A DNA stretch of 64,000 nt from Eledone cirrhosa (Eukaryota), in assembly GCA_964016885.1 (NCBI GenBank), contig OZ024741.1:354826001-354890000 (forward strand), read 5' to 3'. How positions within the stretch are numbered: the first letter of the stretch is position 1; every line of letters starts with the position of its first letter. This document shows, one piece after another, positions 14,603 to 62,468 of the stretch. The translations under genes were made by a program, and so were the position numbers. The notes under the pieces were generated by a model. That model was not told the origin of the DNA and did not search any database. It saw only the letters and a list, made by a program, of their open reading frames with translations.

Positions 14603-15835
14603 CATCATCATCATCATCATCATCACCGTTTTACGTCCGTTCTTCCACGCTAGCATGGGTTAGACGGGTTGTCCTGTTGTGGGCAGTGTCTGGTCGGCTG
14701 ACCATGCCTTGCTCATACAGGAACTGATTTGGCTTGATTTCTACAGCTGGATGCCCTTCCTAACACCAACCTCATTTACAGTGTGGGCTGGGTGCTTTTT
14801 TACCGTGGCACCTCCACGACCACCTTGCGGTGGGGGGTGTGGGGGCATATTGTCTATATGCTTCAGCTTGTACCCATGGGAGGTCGGGTACTCTGTATTA
14901 CTGCGTGACGCCAGAAGTCACGGTCGTATGTCATTGCCTTCGAGAGGTGTAATTGGGTAAGGTCGGCTTTTATCACCTCATCCCAGGTCATCTTGGGTCT
15001 CCCCACTCCGCGGTTTCCATCAACTTCTAGTGCTCTGCACCTTTTTATGCAGCTGTCATCCTTCATACGCATCACATGTCCATACCAGCGCAACCGCCTC
15101 TCCTGCACGCAGCATTTGATTTCTCTTATAATAATAATAATAATAATGAAATTATTATGCTCAGTCTCTCTCTCAATTCATTTATGCTTTGTCGTTCACG
15201 TATATTACTGTTACACATCCATCGGAGCATGCAGGCTTCGTTTCTCTCTAATCTACGTAAGTCTTCCACCTTCAGCGCCCAGGTCTCACTACCATGCAAC
15301 ATTGCTGTTCGGATACACGCATCATACAGTCTGCCTTTCATTCTGAGGGAGAAGCCTTTTGCAGCTAGCAGTGGTAGTGGTTCCCTAAACTTCTTCCATC
15401 CCGTTCTTACCCTAGTTATTGTACTTTCTGAACACCCACCTCCGCTGCTAATTCGGTCACCTAGGTAGCAGAAGCTGTCTACTGTTTCTACAGAGCCCTC
15501 CCAGAGATTGGTGGTACTTGTTTCCTGTGGCTGTTTGCTGCTTGCTGTCTCAGCACAGCTACTGCATGTGAAGCCTACATTCTTAATTAAGCTTCCTGAG
15601 ATCCCGCTACATCTCTTGTGTACCCATTGTTTGCATTTGGGGCAGAGAATGGAGTTCCTACCTACACCTTTCCTACATACTGAGCAAGGCCATTTCCCTG
15701 AGAGGATCTGGGTTCTGTTTTCTCGTCTACTTACAAGGACCTTAGTCTTTGTCATGTTGACTTTGAGACCCTTTCTTTCTAGTCCCTGCTTCCAAGTTTG
15801 GAATTTATTCTCTAGTTCTACCATAGATTCAGCTA
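14603..15835 (-). mobile_element. 5'-truncated RTE LINE inserted into a TTAA-type MITE
   Basis: ORF pieces (15126-15835, 14863-15108) are nearly identical to the C-terminal half of the 60.5-62.5 kb RTE (PHD-like finger, RTAMLHGSETW, RLRWYGHVMR) and there is an (ATG)n tail. The frame is broken by a (TAA)n insertion at about 15128-15156. The flanks rejoin as ttaaccctttcat.acca|tatttctaataaaatacac, a repeat also seen at about 3478 and 12265. Confidence 0.93.
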
Positions 15836-16419
15836 TATTTCTAATAAAATACACTACCTTTGGTTTTTCAAAAGCTCAAGAATTTTGGAGAGATTTAGTA
15901 ATATAACCAACATTCTTATTATTAAGCTGGAAATAACTTAATGAAGATTTTTACATAAAATTTTTGTGGAAGGTTTTTAGATAAACATAAACACTTTCAA
16001 ATAAACAGTATAGGTATCATAAATCCAAGGATAGTTATGGGCAGTTTGGTGTCAAAAAAATTAAATTTAAGTTTAACACCCCCACCCACTTACACACATG
16101 CACACAAACATGCCCCCACACGGAAGGTTTTTGAATATATATAAACATACACATGCATGTGCATGTGTACAGATACACGCAAATATGCTCACACACATCC
16201 ACACACAATTTACATATGTATATAGGGTTTTAAGTTATTTCATTCAAACTTGTTCTGAATCCAAAGAGTTGTTGTCAAACCTGCTTTTTTATTTTATTTG
16301 TTTGAAGGTTCTTTTTTTGTAGTTTTACAGTTGTTGACTCCCTAAATATTTGTGATGGAGAAAATAGCAAGGAATGTTTGTTTTATTCTGTCTATTTAAG
16401 AAGCTAACTTGTCTCTGCT

Positions 16420-36480: not shown

Positions 36481-37462
36481 GTGTGTTGTATGTGGTCCTA
36501 GATGTGTGTATTACCTGCTTATGTGTTGTATGTGGTCCTAGATGTGTGTGCTATCTGATTATGTGTTGTATGTGGTCCTAGATGTATGTGCTATCTGATT
36601 ATGTGTTGTATGTGGTCCTAGATGTATGTATTACCTGCTTGTGTGTTGTATGTGGTCCCAGATGTGTGTGCTACCACTTTGTGTGTTGCATGTGGTCATA
36701 GATGTGTGTATTACCTGCTTATGTGTTGTATGTGGTCCTAGATGTGTGTATTACCTGCTTATGTGTTGTAAGTGGTCCTAGATGTGTGTATTACCTGCTT
36801 ATGTGTTGTATGTGGTACTAGATGTGTGCATTACCTGCCTGTGTGTTGTATGTGGTCCTAGATGTGTGTGCTACCTCCTTATGTGTTGTATGTGGTCCTA
36901 GATGTGTGTATTACCTGCTTATGTGTTGTATGTGGTCCTAGATGTGTGTATTACCTGCCTGTGTGTTGTATGTGGTCCTAGATGTGTGTATTACCTGCCT
37001 GTGTGTTGTATGTGGTCCTAGATGTGTGTGCTACCTCCTTATGTGTTGCATGTGGTCCTAGATGTGTGTATTACCTGCTTATGTGTTGTATGTGGTCCTA
37101 GATGTGTGTGCTACCACCTTGTGTGTTGCATGTGGTCATAGATGTGTGTATTACCTGCTTATGTGTTGTATGTGGTCCTAGATGTGTGTATTACCTGCTT
37201 ATGTGTAGTATGTGGTCCTAGATGTGTGTATTACCTGCTTATGTGTTGTATGTGGTCCTAGATGTGTGTATTACCTGCTTATGTGTTGAATGTGGTCCTA
37301 GATGTATGTATTACATGCTTATGTGTTGTATGTGGTCCTAGATGTGTGTATTAGCTCCTTATGTGTTGTATGTGTGTATTATCTGCTTATGTGTAGTATG
37401 TGGTCCTAGATGTGTGTATTACCTGCTTATGTGTTGAATGTGGTCCTAGATGAGTGTGCTAC
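36481..37462. repeat. 40-bp tandem satellite, about 24.5 copies, inside the hAT element
   Basis: Unit atgtgttgtatgtggtcctagatgtgtgtattacctgctt, with one internally shortened unit near 37370. Confidence 0.97.
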
Positions 37463-41035: not shown

Positions 41036-42283
41036 GTGTCCCAAATGCAAAGTATGGGTGCATAAAAGATGTAGTGGGATCACAGGTAAGCTAACTAAGA
41101 ACATAGATTTTACATGTGGCCGGTGCTCTGGTGCAATAAGTAGCAGCAAGTGCTCACAAAATACTAGCTCTTTCAACTGCGCAGAGGGTTCTATAGAAAT
41201 AGTGGACAGCTTCCGTTACCTGGGTGACAAAAATCAGCAGTGGGGGAGGGTGCTCTGAAAGTACAGTAGCTAGAGTCAGAACTGGATGGAAAAAGTTCAG
41301 AGAGCTTATACCACTATTAGCCGCTAAAGGGTTCTCCCTAAAAATGAAAAGCAGGTTGTACGATGCCTGCATACGAACAGCAATGTTGCATGGCAGTGAG
41401 ACCTGGGCATTGTGTGCAGAGGATATACGCAGACTAGAGAGAAACGAAGCTTGCATGCTCCGCTGGATGTGTAAAAGTAATATACGTGAACGGCAAAGCA
41501 TAAGCGAACTAAGGAAAAAATTAGAAATAAGAGGGATCAGATGTTGTTTACTCGAGAGAAGACTACGTTGGTATGGTCACGTGATGCGCATGAAGGACGA
41601 TAGCTGTATAACAAAGTGCAGGGCAATAAAGATAGACGGTAGCCACGGAATAGGCAGACCCAGAAAAACCTGGGACGAGCTGATAAATTCCGACCTCACA
41701 CACTTACACCTCACCAAGACAATGTCACTGGACCGAGACCTTTGGCGGTACTCAGTAATAGAGAAGACCCGCCTTACCTGAATACAAAGTAAAACCTACT
41801 ACAGTCAGTAGGCATCTCTAACAAAATACACCCCCCGTCCCACCCACCCCCACCCCATCCACACCGCCCCTTTCAATGTAAAGTTATGTTGGTGCCACAA
41901 CATCCAGGCCGAAACAAATGAGATCGTGTAGTGTCACATAAAAAAAAACACACAGTTCACGCTGTAATGTGGCCGTGTAGGCAACACGGTAAAAACCTCC
42001 CAGCCCCACACTGTAAATGTGGTTGGTGTTAGGAAGGGCATCCAGCTGTAGAAAACCCGCCAGACAGTCCACGCTGTAATGTGGCCGTGTAGGCAACACG
42101 GTAAAAACCTCCCAGACCCACACTGTAAATGTGGTTGGTGTTAGGAAGGGCATCCAGCTGTAGAAAACCCGCCAGATAGTCCTATGCGAGCAAGATAATC
42201 ACTCTTGCCTCAAGTGGGAAAACCCCCGTCCAAACCCATGCAAGCGTGGAACACGGACGTTAAACGTTGATGATGATGATGAT
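41033..42283 (+). mobile_element. 5'-truncated RTE LINE of a second, diverged subfamily, inserted in the Helitron (TA)n(CA)n minisatellite
   Basis: [16 protein letters not shown], frameshift at ~41228, then RVRTGWKKFRELIPLL..HGSETW..RLRWYGHVMR, stop at 41781. The 3' UTR has a ~110-bp duplication and a (GAT)n tail. Confidence 0.92.
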
Positions 42284-45071: not shown

Positions 45072-45872
45072 TTGGTAAACGGAATAGAAAATGCTGACAA
45101 ATTGTTCACAGTTGAAAAATGGTTTAATTAGGAATAAAAGAGTATTAGTGATTGTATGGGTTAGTATTCAGTTGTGGTTTTAAGTTTTTAAGTTTTTACC
45201 GGTTGCGCATTTCTAAATGCTTTTCAAAAATCAGCAAGGAATCTTACTTCATTAACAAATACGGACCCCGTCTAAACACTTCTCCCTAAGACGAACCCAC
45301 AACATACACACGTCAACATACATACCTACATCAGCACACATCTCTACCCACATATAAACACAATGACACACGTAAACACACATGCTCTATGGTGCAATAC
45401 AAAAATTATATGTGCATATATATGTATGTATATATGTATATATATATATATATGTAGTGAATATATGTATGTGTATATATATATAGTGAATATCATTTCA
45501 CACCTTTTATTGTTAAGATTTTTGATGTTCTATTAAGAGAACCGATTTTACTGAAAAAATCGAATAATGTACACCATTTTACCAGGGGGAAAAAAATACT
45601 GGTCCACCCACACACACACACACACACACATATATACACAAACACATACACACGCATACATCAACATACAAAGAGACTTATACACACACACGCACATGCT
45701 AAAATACCCCCCATTGCTTTCAGACACATTCTAACTGACCATCGAATTACTCTGCTACACACACACACACACACACACACTTATCTTAATAGCCATTTGA
45801 CACACATCGCTGCTGGCCATTGTCGCAGCATCGAACACCTTACTACTACTACTACACACACACACACACACA

Positions 45873-45911
<39 letters not shown>

Positions 45912-46406
45912 ACACACACACACACATATTTGTTGTGAAAGAGTCATTTCTCAATCTTGGCGCAAAACCAATTTTTTATCCACATGACCTCTACCGACCA
46001 ATCAAAATTGTTTTGACCAAGAATTTTTGCTGGAGCCACTTTTTTAACATAAAAACAGTCTTGGCGCAAAATCAACTTTTTACATTCACATGACCTCTAC
46101 CGACCAATCAAAATTGTTTTGACCACAAGCATTTTTGCAACACAAAAATAACGCTGGAGCCACTTTTTTTAACATAAAAACAGGTAGAATTCCCAAAACT
46201 AATCAGATCAGAGCAAACAGCACGGACACTCTATCTCAAAATTATTTTTGAAAAGCATTTAGAAATGCGCAACCGGTAAAAACTTAAAAAACTTAAAACC
46301 ACAACTGAATACTAACCCATACAATCACTAATACTCTTTTATTCCTTATTAAACCATTTTTTTCAACTGTGAACAATTTGTCAGCATTTTCTATTCCGTT
46401 TACCAA
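45072..46406. mobile_element. Non-autonomous DNA transposon (MITE/foldback type) with ~160-bp TIRs flanked by TA
   Basis: 45072-45231 is the near-perfect reverse complement of 46245-46406 (TA|TTGGTAAACGGAATAG ... CTATTCCGTTTACCAA|TA). It contains (CA)n tracts and a ~104-bp-period direct duplication at about 45955-46165. No transposase was seen. Confidence 0.85.
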
Positions 46407-48415: not shown

Positions 48416-49429
48416 ACATTATTATACTCTATTATCCTATTGTTTTCAAATTTTTATTGAATAAGTATTTTCACTAATTATTTATTTCCTCTCATAAGAA
48501 TATTTAATAAAAAAAAAATTAAAACTTTTCTGCCCCTTTAAATTGAGACAGACAGACTGACAACGTGTGTGTGTGTCTGTGTGTTTATATGTTTGTCTGT
48601 GTGTTTATGTGTGTCTGTGTGTTTCATGAAATTCAACGTACAATAATTATATTTTTCTCCCCAAACTACTAAAACACACAACTATTTGTATATGCCCTAC
48701 AATTTATGTACATATGTTTATCGCATATCGAAGTTTTTTTTATATCTTGGTTGATATTTGATAACAAGTAAACTAATCACTACAACTGAATTGACCCCCC
48801 CCCCTCCCCTCACCAATTCAGAAATTCCCCCCCCCGATGTAATTTGCTACTCAGAGTTTCTTAGTGGGGATGCTCATATCAAGAAACTCTTAGTTGGAAA
48901 TGAACATTCAATTTATTTAACGCACACAACCACACTATTAATATTTATGCTAGAACATTGTTTATGTTTGAAGATTTATTATAAACTTAACTACACGTTT
49001 TTAATTAGAATCCTTAGCTGTGAAAACAATGAAATCTGAATTGTAAATACTTTTGATTATTCCTCTGTACACAGAAAAACAGAAGAGAGTATATTTATAT
49101 TTGTATTTCAGTGGTTATTGCACCTTCTATGGTGTATGAAGGTATATTACTATAGCAATGCTATATCCTAAACGGACGGTAGTCCGTTTAGTTAGTAATA
49201 TTGTTGTGGTCGTGTTTTCGTTGGCAATCGTCTGTTTACGACAGTACAGCGCAGCTCTACTTTATTTAACTGAGATAAAACTTATATGAGCATGAACAGT
49301 AGATCATTACGCATCTTTTGGTTTAAAAATCTAGAAATTTGGTCCAGCGGGAAAAAGTTTATAATCAAAGTTTGCTGATAAATCTTGTGTTCAAGTGAGT
49401 GAGTAGTAAGCGTGACGCTAGGGGAGGTA

Positions 49430-49627
49430 ATCCAGAAATGACGATGTTTGGAAAAGTTTAATTACTGCATGAAAGAAATGATTCAAAAATTGAACTTGCC
49501 CAATCTTCACAACATTGAAAATTGGTCAAAATTTGACAAATCTGACTTCAAACCAGATATGATTCATTTGAACAATGTTGGAAATCTTAAATTGACACAA
49601 ATTTTTGCCAATGTTTTTGCCACCTGA
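49430..49627 (+). pseudogene. SGNH/GDSL-hydrolase C-terminal fragment
   Basis: SRNDDV/(frameshift)LEKFNYCMKEMIQKLNLPNLHNIENWSKFDKSDFKPDMIHLNNVGNLKLTQIFANVFAT*. It carries the block-V DxxHLNxxG motif. AATAAA at 49665-49670. The N-terminal GDS block was not found. Confidence 0.6.
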
Positions 49628-49804
49628 TCCTTGTTCTATGGCTGACTGACTAATTTTGTGACTTAATAAAATGTCATCATACTAGTAATGCACAATGGTC
49701 ATTTTTAAATTTAAATTTTATTAAATAGTTGTTGCTTGCATTGCCTTCAAATAGTAACAAGAATATACACATACTTTTTAAAAATACATTATCAGTCAAA
49801 TCAG

Positions 49805-50164
49805 TCAAATGTCACTAAAAGCCAGGTGGTCGATAACAACTTCTATAAGATTAGTTACATGCTCACACATTGGATCACCTCTCATCAATGGCATTGGGTG
49901 TCTGAGATAATCGTGGAGATAACTGATGAAGTCACAAATGAAGTGATGGTCTTCCAGTGTGAACAACTCCCTATATCCATTGATATATGTGATGGCTTCC
50001 GATTCATAGGTGCATTTTATGAGGAATTCCATGCATCCGATTTTCAGTGATTCAATGGGCATTTTATCAGAGATGATAAGGTATTTGACCACGTTTTGCT
50101 TTGTAAGTAAATTGGAGAGAATCACTGCAGTCAAAGACATTTCTTTGCATGGGTTTTTGTCCAT
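49805..50164 (-). CDS. Intact 119-aa ORF resembling the SPOP C-terminal/BACK-like helical domain, without a BTB domain
   Basis: LSNLLTKQNVVKYLIISDKMPIESLKIGCMEFL...INGYRELF..HHFICD aligns by eye with SPOP [33 protein letters not shown]...SGWKSM..HPHLVAE. The ATG is in agaATGG context, a candidate 5'-UTR intron spans 50166-50208, and there is a minus-strand AATAAA at ~49717-49722. Confidence 0.6.
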   Translation of the reverse strand: MDKNPCKEMSLTAVILSNLLTKQNVVKYLIISDKMPIESLKIGCMEFLIKCTYESEAITYINGYRELFTLEDHHFICDFISYLHDYLRHPMPLMRGDPMCEHVTNLIEVVIDHLAFSDI

Positions 50165-50437
50165 TCTAAAAAGTTAAAATGATAAAGTATTACTACTATA
50201 TAACTTACATCTATTGTTGTAACACCATTGAAATGCACAAGTTTCACCAATTCACTATTATGCACTAATCATCTCAAATGCATTCATGATTTACTAGCTT
50301 TGTCATTAAGCCAGTTGCCTCAACTAGATTGCAATTATACTCAAAAGAACTTTAAAATGTCAATCACTTGTCAGTAATTCACTATGATCATTTAATTATT
50401 AGATAGTTGTTGCTTGCATTGCCTTAAAAAATAGTAG

Positions 50438-51531
50438 ACCAGATAGAAAAATGCGTACAGCAAAAAAAAGTAATATTGTTGGAATATAAACCTTTAAAAA
50501 TACAGGACAAGAAACTAAAATAAAACTTTAAAAGAATAGGACAAGAAACTAAGATAAAACTTTAAAAGAATAGGACAAGAAACTAAGATAAAACTTTAAA
50601 GAATTGGACAAGAAATAAAAAATTTTACAATAATATTAGTGGCAACATTTTTTTATTCGTTTCCTGTGCTATGCCCCAGTATCTTCTTGATTAGTGCATA
50701 ATAATTGTCATGCTCTCATTGTGCGTTGCCCCTGAGCGGTTGGTTCTGGTTGGGGTTGGTTGGCTGAGCAGTTCTGCTCCGTCAGAATGACCATTGCAAG
50801 AAGAATTGGCCGATGCAGTTGCAGGTCTCCTCCAAGAATGCACTTCTGGTCCCGCAACACCAGACGAAGATGGAGAAGACGACCGGGACAAGATGTCGAC
50901 TCTGACCACCGACTACGGCACCTCCCTCAATCACCGGTCCTCCCTCCCTCTGTCCCGTCATCCCTCCAGTCCTCCTGCTCCCCCTTCCTGTACCAGAAAG
51001 CTGTGGCACGCATTCATCTGGACTGCCGGACTTGAACTCAAGGACAAGATGCAAGGAGAAGATGGACGGGTTGGTCAAGATCAAGGATGAGCGGGACGAC
51101 AAGATCGTCCGCTGCTGCTCAACATCTGTGCTTATGGGCCCATGGGTCCATTCACATTATGCATGACACATGAGGTGTGTTGCCGAATGATGAAATAGGG
51201 GTATGGTTATGGCCCAATTGGTGTTCAAACCAGGATCAAATGATCCCCTGGTCTGACGACGACCTCTGAATGTGGAACCCAGAGCCTATGAATGTGGAAC
51301 TCAATTTTTTACCAATAAAAATGTTGCCACTAATATTATTGTAAAATTTTTTATTTCTTGTCCAATTCTTTAAAGTTTTATCTTAGTTTCTTGTCCTATT
51401 CTTTTAAAGTTTTATCTTAGTTTCTTGTCCTATTCTTTTAAAGTTTTATTTTAGTTTCTTGTCCTGTATTTTTAAAGGTTTACATTCCAACAATATTACT
51501 TTTTTTTGGTGTACGCATTTTTCTATCTGGT
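50438..51531. mobile_element. Foldback-like cassette: ~220-bp inverted repeats with internal 34-bp tandem subrepeats around a 656-bp GC-rich core
   Basis: 50438-50657 is the near-perfect reverse complement of 51314-51531. Subrepeat ggacaagaaactaagataaaactttaaaagaata. No TSD was recognised. Confidence 0.75.
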
Positions 51532-51619
51532 ATATATATATATCATAAAGAGTATAGAAAGTACCTTGAAAGATCAGTCTAATTTGCATGACATGTATAC
51601 ATTTGGCAATGTAACTTAA

Positions 51620-60215: not shown

Positions 60216-62468
60216 CATCATCATCATCATCATCATCACCGTTTTACGTCCGTTCTTCCACGCTAGCATGGGTTAGACGGGTTGTCCTGTTGTGGGCAGT
60301 GTCTGGTCGGCTGACCATGCCTTGCTCATACAGGAACTGATCTGGCTTGATTTCTACAGCTGGATGCCCTTCCTAACACCAACCTCATTTACAGTGAGTG
60401 CTGGGTGCTTTTTCGTGGCGCCTACACGTCCACTTTACAGTGTGGGCTGGGTGCTTTTTTGCCGTGGCACCTCCACGACCACCTTGCGGTGGGGGGAGTG
60501 GGGGCATATTGTTTATATGCTTCAGCATGTACCCATGGGAGGTCGGGTACCCTGTATTACTGCGTGACGCCAGAAGTCACGGTCGTGTGTCATTGACTTT
60601 GAGAGGTGTAGTTGGGTAAGGTCGGCTTTTATCACCTCATCCCAAGTCATCTTGGGTCTCCCCACTCCGCGGTTTCCATCAACTTCTAGTGCTCTGCACC
60701 TTTTTATGCAGCTGTCATCCTTCATACGCATCACATGTCCATACCAGCGTAACCGCCTCTCCTGCATGCAGCATTTGATTCCTCTTATGCTCAGTCTCTC
60801 TCTCAATTCCTTTATGCTTTGTCGTTCACGTATATTACTGTTACACATCCATCGGACCATGCAGGCTTCGTTTCTCTCTAATCTACGTAAGTCTTCCACC
60901 TTCAGCGCCCAGGTCTCACTACCATGCAACATCGCTGTTCGGATACACGCATCATACAGTCTGCCTTTCATTCTGAGGGAGAAGCCTTTTGCAGCTAGCA
61001 GTGGTAGTAGTTCCCTAAACTTCTTCCATCCCGTTCTTACCCTAGTTATTGTACTTTCTGAGCACCCACCTCCGTTGCTAATTCGGTCACCTAGGTAGCA
61101 GAAGCTGTCTACTGTTTCTACAGGGCCCTCCCAGAGATTGGTGGTACTTGTTTCCTGTGGCTGTTTGCTTGCTGTTTCAGCACAGCTGCTGCATGTGAAT
61201 CCTACATTCTTAATTAAGCTTCCTGAGATCCCGCTACATCTCTTGTGTACCCATTGTTTGCATTTGGGGCAGAGAATGGAGTTTCTACCTACACCTTTCC
61301 TACATACTGAGCAAGGCCATTTCCCTGAGGGGATCTGGGTTCTGTTTTCTCGTCTACTTACAAGGACCTTAGTCTTTGTCATGTTGACTTTGAGGCCCTT
61401 TCTCTCTAGTCCCTGCTTCCAGGTTTGGAATTTATTCTCTAGTTCTACCATAGATTCAGCTATGAGTGCGAGGTCATCAGCATACAGGAGTTCCCATGGG
61501 CATCCGGTCTTAAACTCCTCCGTTATTGCCTGCAGGACTATGATGAACAGGAGAGGGCTAAGAACAGAGCCCTGGTGGACCCCAACCTGTACGCTAAATT
61601 CCTCGCTATACTCATTGCCAATCCTAACTTTGCTGACTGCTCCCCTATACATGGCTTGTACCGCTTTCACAAGCCATTCATCTACTCCTAGTTTTCTAAG
61701 AGCCCACCAGATTACTGCACGTGGAACTCTGTCAAAGGCTTTCTCAAGGTCGACAAATGCCAAGTAGAGTGGCTTACTTTTAGCTAGGTACTTTTCCTGT
61801 AATTGCCTCACAAGGAAGAGGGCATCAGTGGTGCCTTTCCCTGGTACAAACCCAAATTGCATCTCGTCTATATTCACCCGGTCCCTAATCAGCTGTGCTA
61901 TAACTCTTTCTGTTACTTTCATGACCTGGTCCATCAACTTTATACCTCTATAGTTTCCTCTATCTAGTGCATCGCCTTTACCTTTGTAGCAGTTGACAAT
62001 GATGCTACTGCACCAATCTTTTGGTATGGCCCCCTCTAGTATTACCTGGTTAACGATACGTGTGGTTATAGTGTGACCTACAGACCCAGATGCCTTCAGC
62101 ATCTCGGCAGCTATACCCGATGGACCGGTTGCCTTCCCTATCTTCATATCTCTGATTGCCTTACTTACTACGCTGCCGCTGACTTGTACTGCTGGTCCCT
62201 CTATAGGGTCTACGTGGGGTAGGGTCTCTTCTTTCCATGCATTCTCCTCATTTAGTAATCTATCATAATGACTCTTCCATGCATCTTTCTTCTCAGCACT
62301 TGTGAGGGCAAGCTCACCTTTATCATTCCGGATACACTTCTCTCCAATGACATCACAACTATCTCTGACACACTGCCTCGCAATCTTGAATACCTCCTGT
62401 TTCTGGTCCTCACGTTGTAAAACATGCTTGAATTTTCTATCCTCTGCTTCCCTCCTAGCTAAGTATAC
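60216..62468 (-). mobile_element. Young 5'-truncated RTE LINE inserted in (TA)n
   Basis: (ATG)n tail at 60216-60237, a 3' UTR, then an uninterrupted ORF up to the truncation point beside a (TA)n run. Confidence 0.96.
60522..62468 (-). CDS. RTE reverse transcriptase ORF, 5'-truncated (APE endonuclease domain missing)
   Basis: The frame is open from 62468 (VYLARREAEDRKFK...) through NYRGIKL, QFGF, FVDLEKAFD, GVHQGSVLSPLLF and LLYADD, then a C4HC3 finger and RLRWYGHVMR, to the stop at 60522. Confidence 0.9.
   Translation of the reverse strand, partial: VYLARREAEDRKFKHVLQREDQKQEVFKIARQCVRDSCDVIGEKCIRNDKGELALTSAEKKDAWKSHYDRLLNEENAWKEETLPHVDPIEGPAVQVSGSVVSKAIRDMKIGKATGPSGIAAEMLKASGSVGHTITTRIVNQVILEGAIPKDWCSSIIVNCYKGKGDALDRGNYRGIKLMDQVMKVTERVIAQLIRDRVNIDEMQFGFVPGKGTTDALFLVRQLQEKYLAKSKPLYLAFVDLEKAFDRVPRAVIWWALRKLGVDEWLVKAVQAMYRGAVSKVRIGNEYSEEFSVQVGVHQGSVLSPLLFIIVLQAITEEFKTGCPWELLYADDLALIAESMVELENKFQTWKQGLERKGLKVNMTKTKVLVSRRENRTQIPSGKWPCSVCRKGVGRNSILCPKCKQWVHKRCSGISGSLIKNVGFTCSSCAETASKQPQETSTTNLWEGPVETVDSFCYLGDRISNGGGCSESTITRVRTGWKKFRELLPLLAAKGFSLRMKGRLYDACIRTAMLHGSETWALKVEDLRRLERNEACMVRWMCNSNIRERQSIKELRERLSIRGIKCCMQERRLRWYGHVMRMKDDSCIKRCRALEVDGNRGVGRPKMTWDEVIKADLTQLHLSKSMTHDRDFWRHAVIQGTRPPMGTC

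What the first reader, a model, noticed from the sequence alone, without database searches (positions are those of the whole stretch)
49805..50208. Intact stand-alone SPOP-C/BACK-like protein: possible Cullin3-adaptor decoy
Seen: an uninterrupted ORF with ATG, stop, poly(A) signal and a candidate 5'-UTR mini-intron (GTAAGT..tttaac..ttttAG). Its hydrophobic pattern matches the 3-box/BACK helices that follow BTB in SPOP-like proteins, but there is no BTB or MATH domain. Known: this region supports CUL3 binding and SPOP oligomerisation, and poxviruses encode BTB-BACK CUL3 modulators. Inference: a mobile-element-borne dominant-negative modulator of host ubiquitin ligases.
Basis: partly seen in the sequence, partly recalled or inferred. 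Interest (0 to 1): 0.7.

Follow-up and report, generated by a model that had tools for sequence, protein, structure and literature searches.

The report
Helitron-borne BTB-like protein fragment
The small reading frame is real, but it rides as cargo in a young rolling-circle jumping gene with hundreds of copies, and it is likely a worn piece of a BTB/BACK-type protein that the element carries as a passenger rather than a working blocker of ubiquitin ligases.

Summary
The ORF (50164-49805, minus strand, 119 aa) is real. It lies in a 2,365-bp dispersed repeat (49166-51530): at least 150 ORF copies at 96-100% identity, 285 exact copies of one end. The repeat is a non-autonomous Helitron-like element of group HLE2. 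It inserts at A|T without target duplication, and longer family members encode DUF6570-Rep-PIF1-UCH, with this ORF downstream and antisense. BACK likeness is weak but above chance in directed tests (10.9 bits, 0 of 2,000 shuffles) and confined to residues ~17-69. Pfam, PDB and large protein searches found nothing; the BTB core that holds most CUL3 contacts is absent. Copies decay neutrally (omega 1.06; 10 of 37 broken), but so does the Rep gene, so this does not exclude a role for the element. 29 of 80 copies lack the ORF, and three related families show no homologue. Best reading: captured 3-box/BACK-like passenger (0.55). Accessory gene of the element: 0.22; a CUL3/SPOP decoy specifically about 0.08. 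Expression, fold and binding remain untested. The scan held no earlier look-alike of this sequence.

The parts
49166..51530 (+). Non-autonomous HLE2 (Helitron-like) copy, 2,365 bp, A|TC ... CTGG|T; strand given is that of the family's Rep/helicase gene
   Evidence: Shared boundaries in copies; flanking bases; empty sites; coordinates
49168..49191 (+). 5'-terminal hairpin, 10-bp stem and 4-nt loop; the sister family has a compensatory change in the stem
49194..49206 (+). 5' asymmetric terminal inverted repeat, 13 bp
   Evidence: Sequence; complement at 51488-51500
49667..49756 (.). Far copy of a ~90-bp motif duplicated around the ORF cassette; holds the AATAAA (49722-49717, minus)
49805..50164 (-). 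119-aa ORF; residues ~17-69 weakly resemble the BTB-end/3-box/BACK helix pair; antisense to Rep/helicase
50166..50208 (-). Candidate 43-nt GT-AG mini-intron upstream of the ATG (splicing unshown)
50353..50436 (.). Near copy of the duplicated motif; related families keep a similar motif beside their inner inverted repeat
50435..50652 (.). Internal inverted copy of the element's 3' end, 218 bp, 99% complementary, with 34-bp tandem units
50653..51316 (.). 664-bp GC-richer spacer between the inverted repeats; no Pfam match in the frames tested
51317..51530 (+). 3'-terminal arm of the inverted repeat, with the 3' asymmetric repeat (51488-51500) and terminal CTGG (51527-51530)

Best explanation
The ORF is cargo of a young non-autonomous Helitron-like element (HLE2), and it is likely a diverged 3-box/BACK-type fragment carried as a passenger with no present role in ubiquitin control. 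Shown: the element has fixed ends, inserts between A and T without duplication, and belongs to a family whose long members encode DUF6570-Rep-PIF1-UCH with this ORF downstream on the opposite strand. Inferred from known Helitron biology: the Rep/helicase of a long copy nicks the TC end, displaces the strand to the CTGG end and pastes it elsewhere, copying whatever lies between. Inferred: the cassette entered after this family split from its sister (Rep dS 0.56), beside a duplicated ~90-bp motif, and was multiplied in a burst about 0.8% divergence ago. The frame looks intact mainly because the burst is recent.
For: 150 of 150 scored matches at 96-100% identity, of 302 candidates; 285 exact end matches, control 0. 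A before TC in 26 of 26 copies; T after CTGG in 25 of 25 and 53 of 54. Empty sites for 9 of 54 complete copies; 33 of 43 rows join the flanks with no gap and no duplication. DUF6570, Helitron_like_N, PIF1, UvrD_C_2 and UCH in long copies; UCH and the ORF in one copy. Neutral decay: 25 synonymous of 104 rare changes, 25.8 expected, omega 1.06; 10 of 37 frames broken. 29 of 80 copies lack the ORF but keep the far side, in at least three amplified deletion classes. No homologue in 26 loci of three related families. Weak BTB/BACK signal.
Against: Private changes in the Rep gene are just as neutral (39 non-synonymous, 2 nonsense, 10 synonymous in 6 copies), so neutrality among copies does not show lack of function. 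If the cassette is as old as its flanking duplication (JC 0.12), a neutral frame would have stayed open with probability 0.13 (range 0.02-0.47). The ORF has an ATG, gene-like codon usage, a candidate intron and AATAAA, as a kept small gene would. A protein acting in trans need not be carried by every copy. No parent gene was found, and 152 of 302 candidates were not scored.
Confidence: 0.55

Rival explanations
1. The ORF is a kept accessory gene of the element. It is spliced, translated and acts in trans on the ubiquitin system, for example by capping SPOP-type oligomers or competing weakly for CUL3, alongside the UCH deubiquitinase domain of the Rep/helicase.
For: Open frame despite no detectable parent; survival estimate 0.13 under neutrality; gene-like signals; UCH in the same element. 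HLEs carry several protein-degradation domains (PMC11417382, passages).
Against: No BTB core, which holds two of the three groups of CUL3 contacts and the phi-x-E motif; the 3-box touches only CUL3 helix 5 (PMC11074293, passages). SPOP BACK-BACK binding is weak (KD 36 uM) and rests on N326/Y353 and E334/R354 (PMC4910529, passages); N326 and E334 align to I49 and Y60 (gap placement uncertain). Not found in three related families; lost in amplified subfamilies.
Confidence: 0.22
2. The ORF is a chance frame, or comes from an unrelated helical protein, and the BACK likeness is a short amphipathic helix pattern.
For: 6% of shuffled elements give such a frame. No Pfam BTB/BACK match at E<=1, none in PDB sequences at E<=10, none among 1.84 billion representatives at E<=0.001. 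hhalign probabilities only 5% and 32%. Atlas recognition 2295 is just under its 2300 mark. The register differs between profiles.
Against: Beats 2,000 of 2,000 shuffles and 321 of 321 natural decoys on the host BTB-BACK profile, 1,999 of 2,000 on the SPOP profile, and 100 of 100 shuffles in both hhalign tests, narrowly for SPOP (22.0 vs 21.8). 10 of the 10 best Atlas hits with a family share a family or clan with the best (BTB) hit. Best of six frames for codon usage.
Confidence: 0.18
3. At this locus the ORF is the last exon of an ordinary host BTB gene spliced from upstream.
For: A splice-acceptor-like sequence precedes the ATG; host SPOP has a small exon covering the same region.
Against: Upstream lie only the element's own repeats. 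The same context recurs in 30 of 30 fetched copies over the 120 nt before the ATG. Using the adjacent donor puts a stop codon in frame just before the joint (sequence). No BTB-coding frame among window frames of 90-130 aa or more (read by eye, short exons not covered). Similarity to the host SPOP exon is 6 bits.
Confidence: 0.03

Closest known systems
HLE2 elements with UCH (subgroups c and d) in HELIANO, PMC11417382 (section 24 whole; passages of 4, 13, 22, 23; supplement searched for five terms)
   Same: DUF6570 marker, Rep, PIF1, UvrD_C_2, UCH; short asymmetric inverted repeats; non-autonomous derivatives sharing both ends.
   Different: Inserts at A|T with TC...CTGG ends, not T|T; the strong hairpin is at the 5' end; a 218-bp inverted copy of the 3' end lies inside. 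'BTB' has 0 hits in the main text; 'BTB' and 'BACK' have 0 hits in the supplement.
proto-Helentron and HLE2-reverse (FoHeli3-5): PMC4067079 section 11; PMC11417382 section 24; PMC5148889 passages
   Same: HLE2-type transposase with a 5' stem-loop before the left inverted repeat; proto-Helentron ends in CTAG and inserts between A and T.
   Different: Here the hairpin starts at base 3 and adjoins the repeat; animal host; UCH domain; long internal inverted repeat; different cargo.
Captured genes and gene fragments in Helentrons: histone fragments in Culex (PMC4067079, passages); texim SGNH genes of fish (PMC4021074, passages)
   Same: A host-like coding piece carried and multiplied by a rolling-circle element, not needed by most family members.
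   Different: texim genes are whole, multi-exon and shown to be expressed; the histone fragments have identifiable parents at 83-84% identity. This ORF has no parent found and no expression data.
SPOP 3-box/BACK region (PF24570; PDB 4hs2, 4j8z listed)
   Same: Weak match of residues ~17-69 to the helix pair after the BTB core.
   Different: 5.7 bits only; no BTB, no MATH; dimer residues N326 and E334 not kept in the alignment; residues 70-119 unmatched.
Vaccinia A55 and other poxvirus BTB-BACK proteins (seen only as citations in PMC11074293)
   Same: The idea of a parasite-encoded CUL3 adaptor mimic.
   Different: The A55 structure cited is of a BTB-BACK unit bound to CUL3; this ORF lacks the BTB.

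Membership tests
HLE2 (Helitron2/Helentron group) | Rep (Helitron_like_N) and PIF1 helicase in autonomous members sharing the ends | tested here: met
   Pfam E 1.6e-26 and 1.3e-8 in L102 and L105; the same hairpin end. The copies read are broken into several frames.
HLE2 (Helitron2/Helentron group) | DUF6570, marker of HLE2 | tested here: met
   E 1.9e-14; marker status from PMC11417382
HLE2 (Helitron2/Helentron group) | Short asymmetric terminal inverted repeats plus a terminal hairpin | tested here: met
   13-bp repeats at 49194-49206 and 51488-51500; hairpin 49168-49191
HLE2 (Helitron2/Helentron group) | No target-site duplication | tested here: met
   33 of 43 empty-site rows, from 4 of the 9 copies with hits, join with gap 0; the others are -8 to +4
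HLE2 (Helitron2/Helentron group) | Usual T|T target (not universal: proto-Helentron uses A|T) | tested here: not met
   A|T in 26 of 26 and 25 of 25, 53 of 54 ends
HLE2 (Helitron2/Helentron group) | Rep/helicase groups in the HLE2 clade of a tree | not tested
   No reference HLE sequences were fetched; placement rests on domains and ends
Helentron in the strict sense | AP endonuclease fused after the helicase | tested here: not met
   UCH, not Exo_endo_phos, follows the helicase in L105
BACK / BACK_BPM_SPOP domain | Pfam match over the curated cut-off (PF07707, PF24570) | tested here: not met
   No such match at E<=1
BACK / BACK_BPM_SPOP domain | Sequence pattern of the 3-box/BACK helix pair | tested here: inconclusive
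   10.9 and 5.7 bits, above shuffles, residues ~17-69 only; hhalign 32% and 5%
BACK / BACK_BPM_SPOP domain | All-helical BACK fold | tested here: inconclusive
   Single-sequence model pLDDT 39; its Foldseek search is uninformative
CUL3 adaptor (BTB-3-box) | BTB core with the phi-x-E motif | tested here: not met
   No BTB match in the ORF; no BTB-like upstream frame in the element (read by eye)
CUL3 adaptor (BTB-3-box) | Binding to the CUL3 N-terminal domain | not testable with these tools
   Host cullin genes came only as short exons; needs a pull-down

The most novel reading that the evidence does not exclude
A rolling-circle transposon carries a two-part kit against host protein degradation: a deubiquitinase (UCH) on its Rep/helicase and, on the opposite strand, a spliced BTB-less 3-box/BACK microprotein that caps SPOP-type oligomers or competes for CUL3 and so protects the transposase; hundreds of non-autonomous copies raise its dose.
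Probability: 0.08. Interest if true: 0.75.

Novelty: new member of a known kind. Interest (0 to 1): 0.33.

Why it matters
As a passenger it is one more case of gene-fragment capture by a Helitron-like element, with a cargo type not listed in the HELIANO survey. It also marks out a young, high-copy HLE2 family with an unusual end structure shared by related families in this genome. If it were a kept accessory gene, it would be a transposon-encoded mimic of a CUL3 adaptor part, and would offer a test of why HLE2 elements collect ubiquitin-pathway domains.

Tried and rejected
Homologue searches that found nothing: 5.8-billion-protein search, near lengths (1 candidate, none scored) and longer (78 candidates, none at E<=1); phmmer on 1.84 billion representatives; PDB sequences; viral contigs. 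The metagenome scan gave one 19-residue match at 58% (L231), rejected as too short and not followed up.

Structure: AlphaFold without alignment gave pLDDT 39 and Foldseek on it nothing at E<=0.001; both uninformative. I did not fold with a forced BACK alignment, because the result would be circular.

Complex of the ORF with residues 262-362 of a limpet SPOP (stand-in; alignment not used by the tool): no answer, scores 0.13 and 0.01 against a mark of 0.34, controls not folded. A CUL3 job was not sent because host cullins came as short exons.

Expression: no RNA holder listed. The five runs are contigs of unrecorded kind; four were laid (X1, X2, X5; X1, X2, X4, X5). No joint at the candidate intron. 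In the deep runs 0 of 35 and 1 of 41 contigs fit only partly, so no parent gene at 80% identity or more showed; contigs cannot show absence. Run X5 (organism B) holds short near-identical pieces at depth about 3; not interpreted.

Parent gene in the own genome: the protein search is saturated by copies (150 of 302 scored). PF24570, PF07707 and PF00651 searches gave host-like genes; against 37 such frames the best phmmer score was 12.2 bits.

Rejected identities: Penelope or DIRS retroelement, and Polinton-like element (two facing copies L017/L018 each end at their own hairpin). Rfam gave one sub-threshold match. dN/dS between subfamilies was not possible: one shared change only. PMC2847577 was not held.

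Full report
Observation. The frame runs 50164-49805 on the minus strand, 119 codons from ATG to TGA. A 43-nt GT-AG stretch ends one base before the ATG, and one AATAAA lies 83 nt after the stop. Such a frame arose in 127 of 2,000 shuffled elements. Its codon usage is the best of its six frames under a transposon-trained and a host-trained model and matches real genes, but 23 of 212 and 16 of 212 non-coding windows score as high. The genome is 3.0 Gb and its SPOP exon finds mollusc SPOPs among the best named hits; I take it to be an octopus-like mollusc, which is inference.

It is a high-copy repeat. The protein search scored 150 of 302 candidates, all at 96-100% identity, 5 with an inner stop; this set is selected on score. 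Thirty fetched copies share boundaries near window 49166 or 49446 and 51530. Those breaking at 49446 carry about 1.3-1.8 kb more and, in 12 of the 13 followed, end in the same hairpin motif. That end occurs 285 times exactly, control 0. I fetched 80 of the 91 listed places not already held, in contig order.

The element is an HLE2. Read on the window's plus strand it starts TC, forms a 10-bp hairpin at once, has a 13-bp asymmetric repeat whose partner lies 30 nt before the end, and ends CTGG. A precedes it in 26 of 26 protein-selected ends; T follows it in 25 of 25 and 53 of 54. Flanks of 9 of 54 complete copies were found as empty sites; 33 of 43 rows, from 4 copies, join with no gap or duplication, the rest differ by -8 to +4. 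Long members carry frames with DUF6570, Helitron_like_N, PIF1, UvrD_C_2 and UCH. DUF6570 marks HLE2 and UCH is enriched in its subgroups c and d (PMC11417382). One copy (L134-L135) holds Rep/helicase-UCH and the intact ORF about 3.7 kb into the downstream stretch, antisense; its hairpin was not in the stretch fetched. The long copies read are broken into several frames. [quoted passage not shown]

Related families. A UCH search found a sister family and two more distant ones. All have a 140-220-bp inverted copy of the 3' end, a similar short motif beside its inner arm, and end in CTAG|T. The sister's hairpin has a compensatory change. None of 26 loci from these families shows the ORF (tblastn none at E<=1; best phmmer E 0.43 among 4,768 frames); the sister is represented by two near-identical copies only. 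In our family the motif is present twice, on both sides of the ORF, and the two copies align with each other over a longer stretch than either does with the sister's. I infer that the cassette entered after the split (Rep dS 0.56, omega 0.11).

Selection. Of the 80 end-selected loci, 38 have the full ORF region, 2 a part, 29 lack it but keep the far side, and 11 are truncated or long. The ORF-less copies fall into at least three amplified deletion classes of about 15, 7 and 3. After dropping one duplicate (L095), 37 copies gave 24 intact, 3 in-frame indels, 7 frameshifts and 3 stops. Rare substitutions were 25 synonymous, 76 non-synonymous and 3 nonsense, against 25.8 synonymous expected from flank rates (omega 1.06, p 0.91); divergence was 0.82% per copy against 0.68% and 0.70% in the adjacent flanks and 1.45% in the hairpin-end piece. 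The control matters: private changes in 410 codons of Rep among 6 copies were 39 non-synonymous, 2 nonsense and 10 synonymous, although Rep is under strong constraint between families. Neutrality among copies therefore explains why the frame looks intact but does not show that it is useless. Against my reading, the flanking duplicates differ by JC 0.12 in 35 copies; a neutral frame of that age would stay open with probability 0.13 (0.02-0.47). That estimate assumes the duplication dates the capture, and the ORF was picked for being open.

BACK likeness. Pfam, PDB sequences and the large protein searches give nothing. The Atlas lists BTB and BACK clusters at 0.90-0.93, with recognition just under its mark and an unnamed, half-viral cluster first in the whole-protein search. 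A profile of 29 host BTB-BACK segments scores the ORF 10.9 bits, above 2,000 of 2,000 shuffles and 321 of 321 natural decoys, at residues 26-67. A profile of 50 SPOP tails scores 5.7 bits, reached by 1 of 2,000 shuffles, at residues 17-69; hhalign probabilities are 32% and 5%. The first profile places the match on the last BTB helices, the second on the 3-box, because the helix pair is repeated. I put descent from a BTB/BACK protein at about 0.75-0.8 and assignment to SPOP in particular as unshown.

Decoy idea. CUL3 binds adaptors through three groups of contacts, two from the BTB domain and one from the 3-box to helix 5, with a phi-x-E motif in the BTB (PMC11074293, passages). The ORF lacks the BTB core. 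SPOP BACK dimers are weak (36 uM) and use N326/Y353 and E334/R354 (PMC4910529, passages); N326 and E334 align to I49 and Y60. A decoy is thus possible but not favoured. In its favour, the element also carries a UCH domain, and HLEs collect protein-degradation domains.

How it most likely works. Shown: ends, target, family link, copy number, decay, loss in subfamilies. Inferred: Rep/helicase from a long copy mobilises the short copies by rolling-circle transposition; the cassette came in by a capture or recombination beside the inner inverted repeat; the ORF is copied along without being needed. On the calibration quoted in PMC13282606 (JC 0.09 for 25 million years; passages), 0.8% would be about 2 million years, a rough figure from other octopus species.

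Literature and novelty. Searches: Helentron/subTIR/HINE, HLE2/HELIANO, SPOP/3-box, Helitron+BTB+captured+transposon (8 papers), Helitron+octopus+cephalopod, Helitron/2A, transposon-encoded BTB Cullin3. No listing described a BTB or BACK piece as Helitron cargo; of those lists I read passages only of the papers cited here and of PMC12062965 and PMC13167761, which do not report it in the passages seen. The HELIANO text and supplement have no BTB; its supplement lists HLE2 in an octopus genome. Subscription papers and Repbase were not searchable. Fragment capture by Helentrons is known, so this is a new member of a known kind with a new cargo. Earlier notes of this scan report other small intron-bearing genes in Helitrons of this genome, unchecked here, and none for this sequence.

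Noticed in passing
L102:1419 region and L152:3338 region: The Rep/helicase frame of this family and its sister has a 2A-like motif (GxExNPGP) near its start; not seen in the distant family L140. A paper search listed no Helitron case; listings only.
   Followed up: partly
window 50435-51534; L136, L139, L143, L144 and relatives: Four related HLE2 families all have a 140-220-bp inverted copy of the 3' end around a 0.5-0.9-kb spacer, and a conserved short motif beside the inner arm. It could fold the displaced strand into a large terminal stem; untested.
   Followed up: partly
G000 C1:200491926, C2:253901735, C5:5374252, C13:18827946, C14:27662475, C3:72988351: A distant family has several copies with open frames of 2,230-2,245 aa around the UCH match, 99-100% alike where compared, so it may still be active.
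   Followed up: partly
L136:3047-3661 (+): The sister family's spacer holds a 205-aa Cys/His-rich frame with no Pfam match; it recalls a LINE ORF1 start (from memory, untested).
   Followed up: partly
L084: A copy of this family sits inside the 3' region of the distant family; empty sites in L143, L191, L194, L202.
   Followed up: yes
L139:5373-10000 and L140:1-1527: One copy of the distant family is inserted in a long array of a ~38-bp satellite.
   Followed up: no
window 60522-62468 (-); fragments at 15126-15875 (-) and 41203-41781 (+): 648-aa open frame with a reverse-transcriptase-like YADD motif, a LINE by appearance; label from memory, the long frame was not scanned.
   Followed up: no
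window 36482-37457: 40-bp tandem array, 24.7 copies, 88% matches.
   Followed up: no
window 45115-46361: 83-bp inverted repeats, 95% complementary, 1,081 nt apart; possibly a MITE.
   Followed up: no
L156 and L159 (G000 C1:213.58 Mb): Exons of the host SPOP gene, used as comparison.
   Followed up: yes
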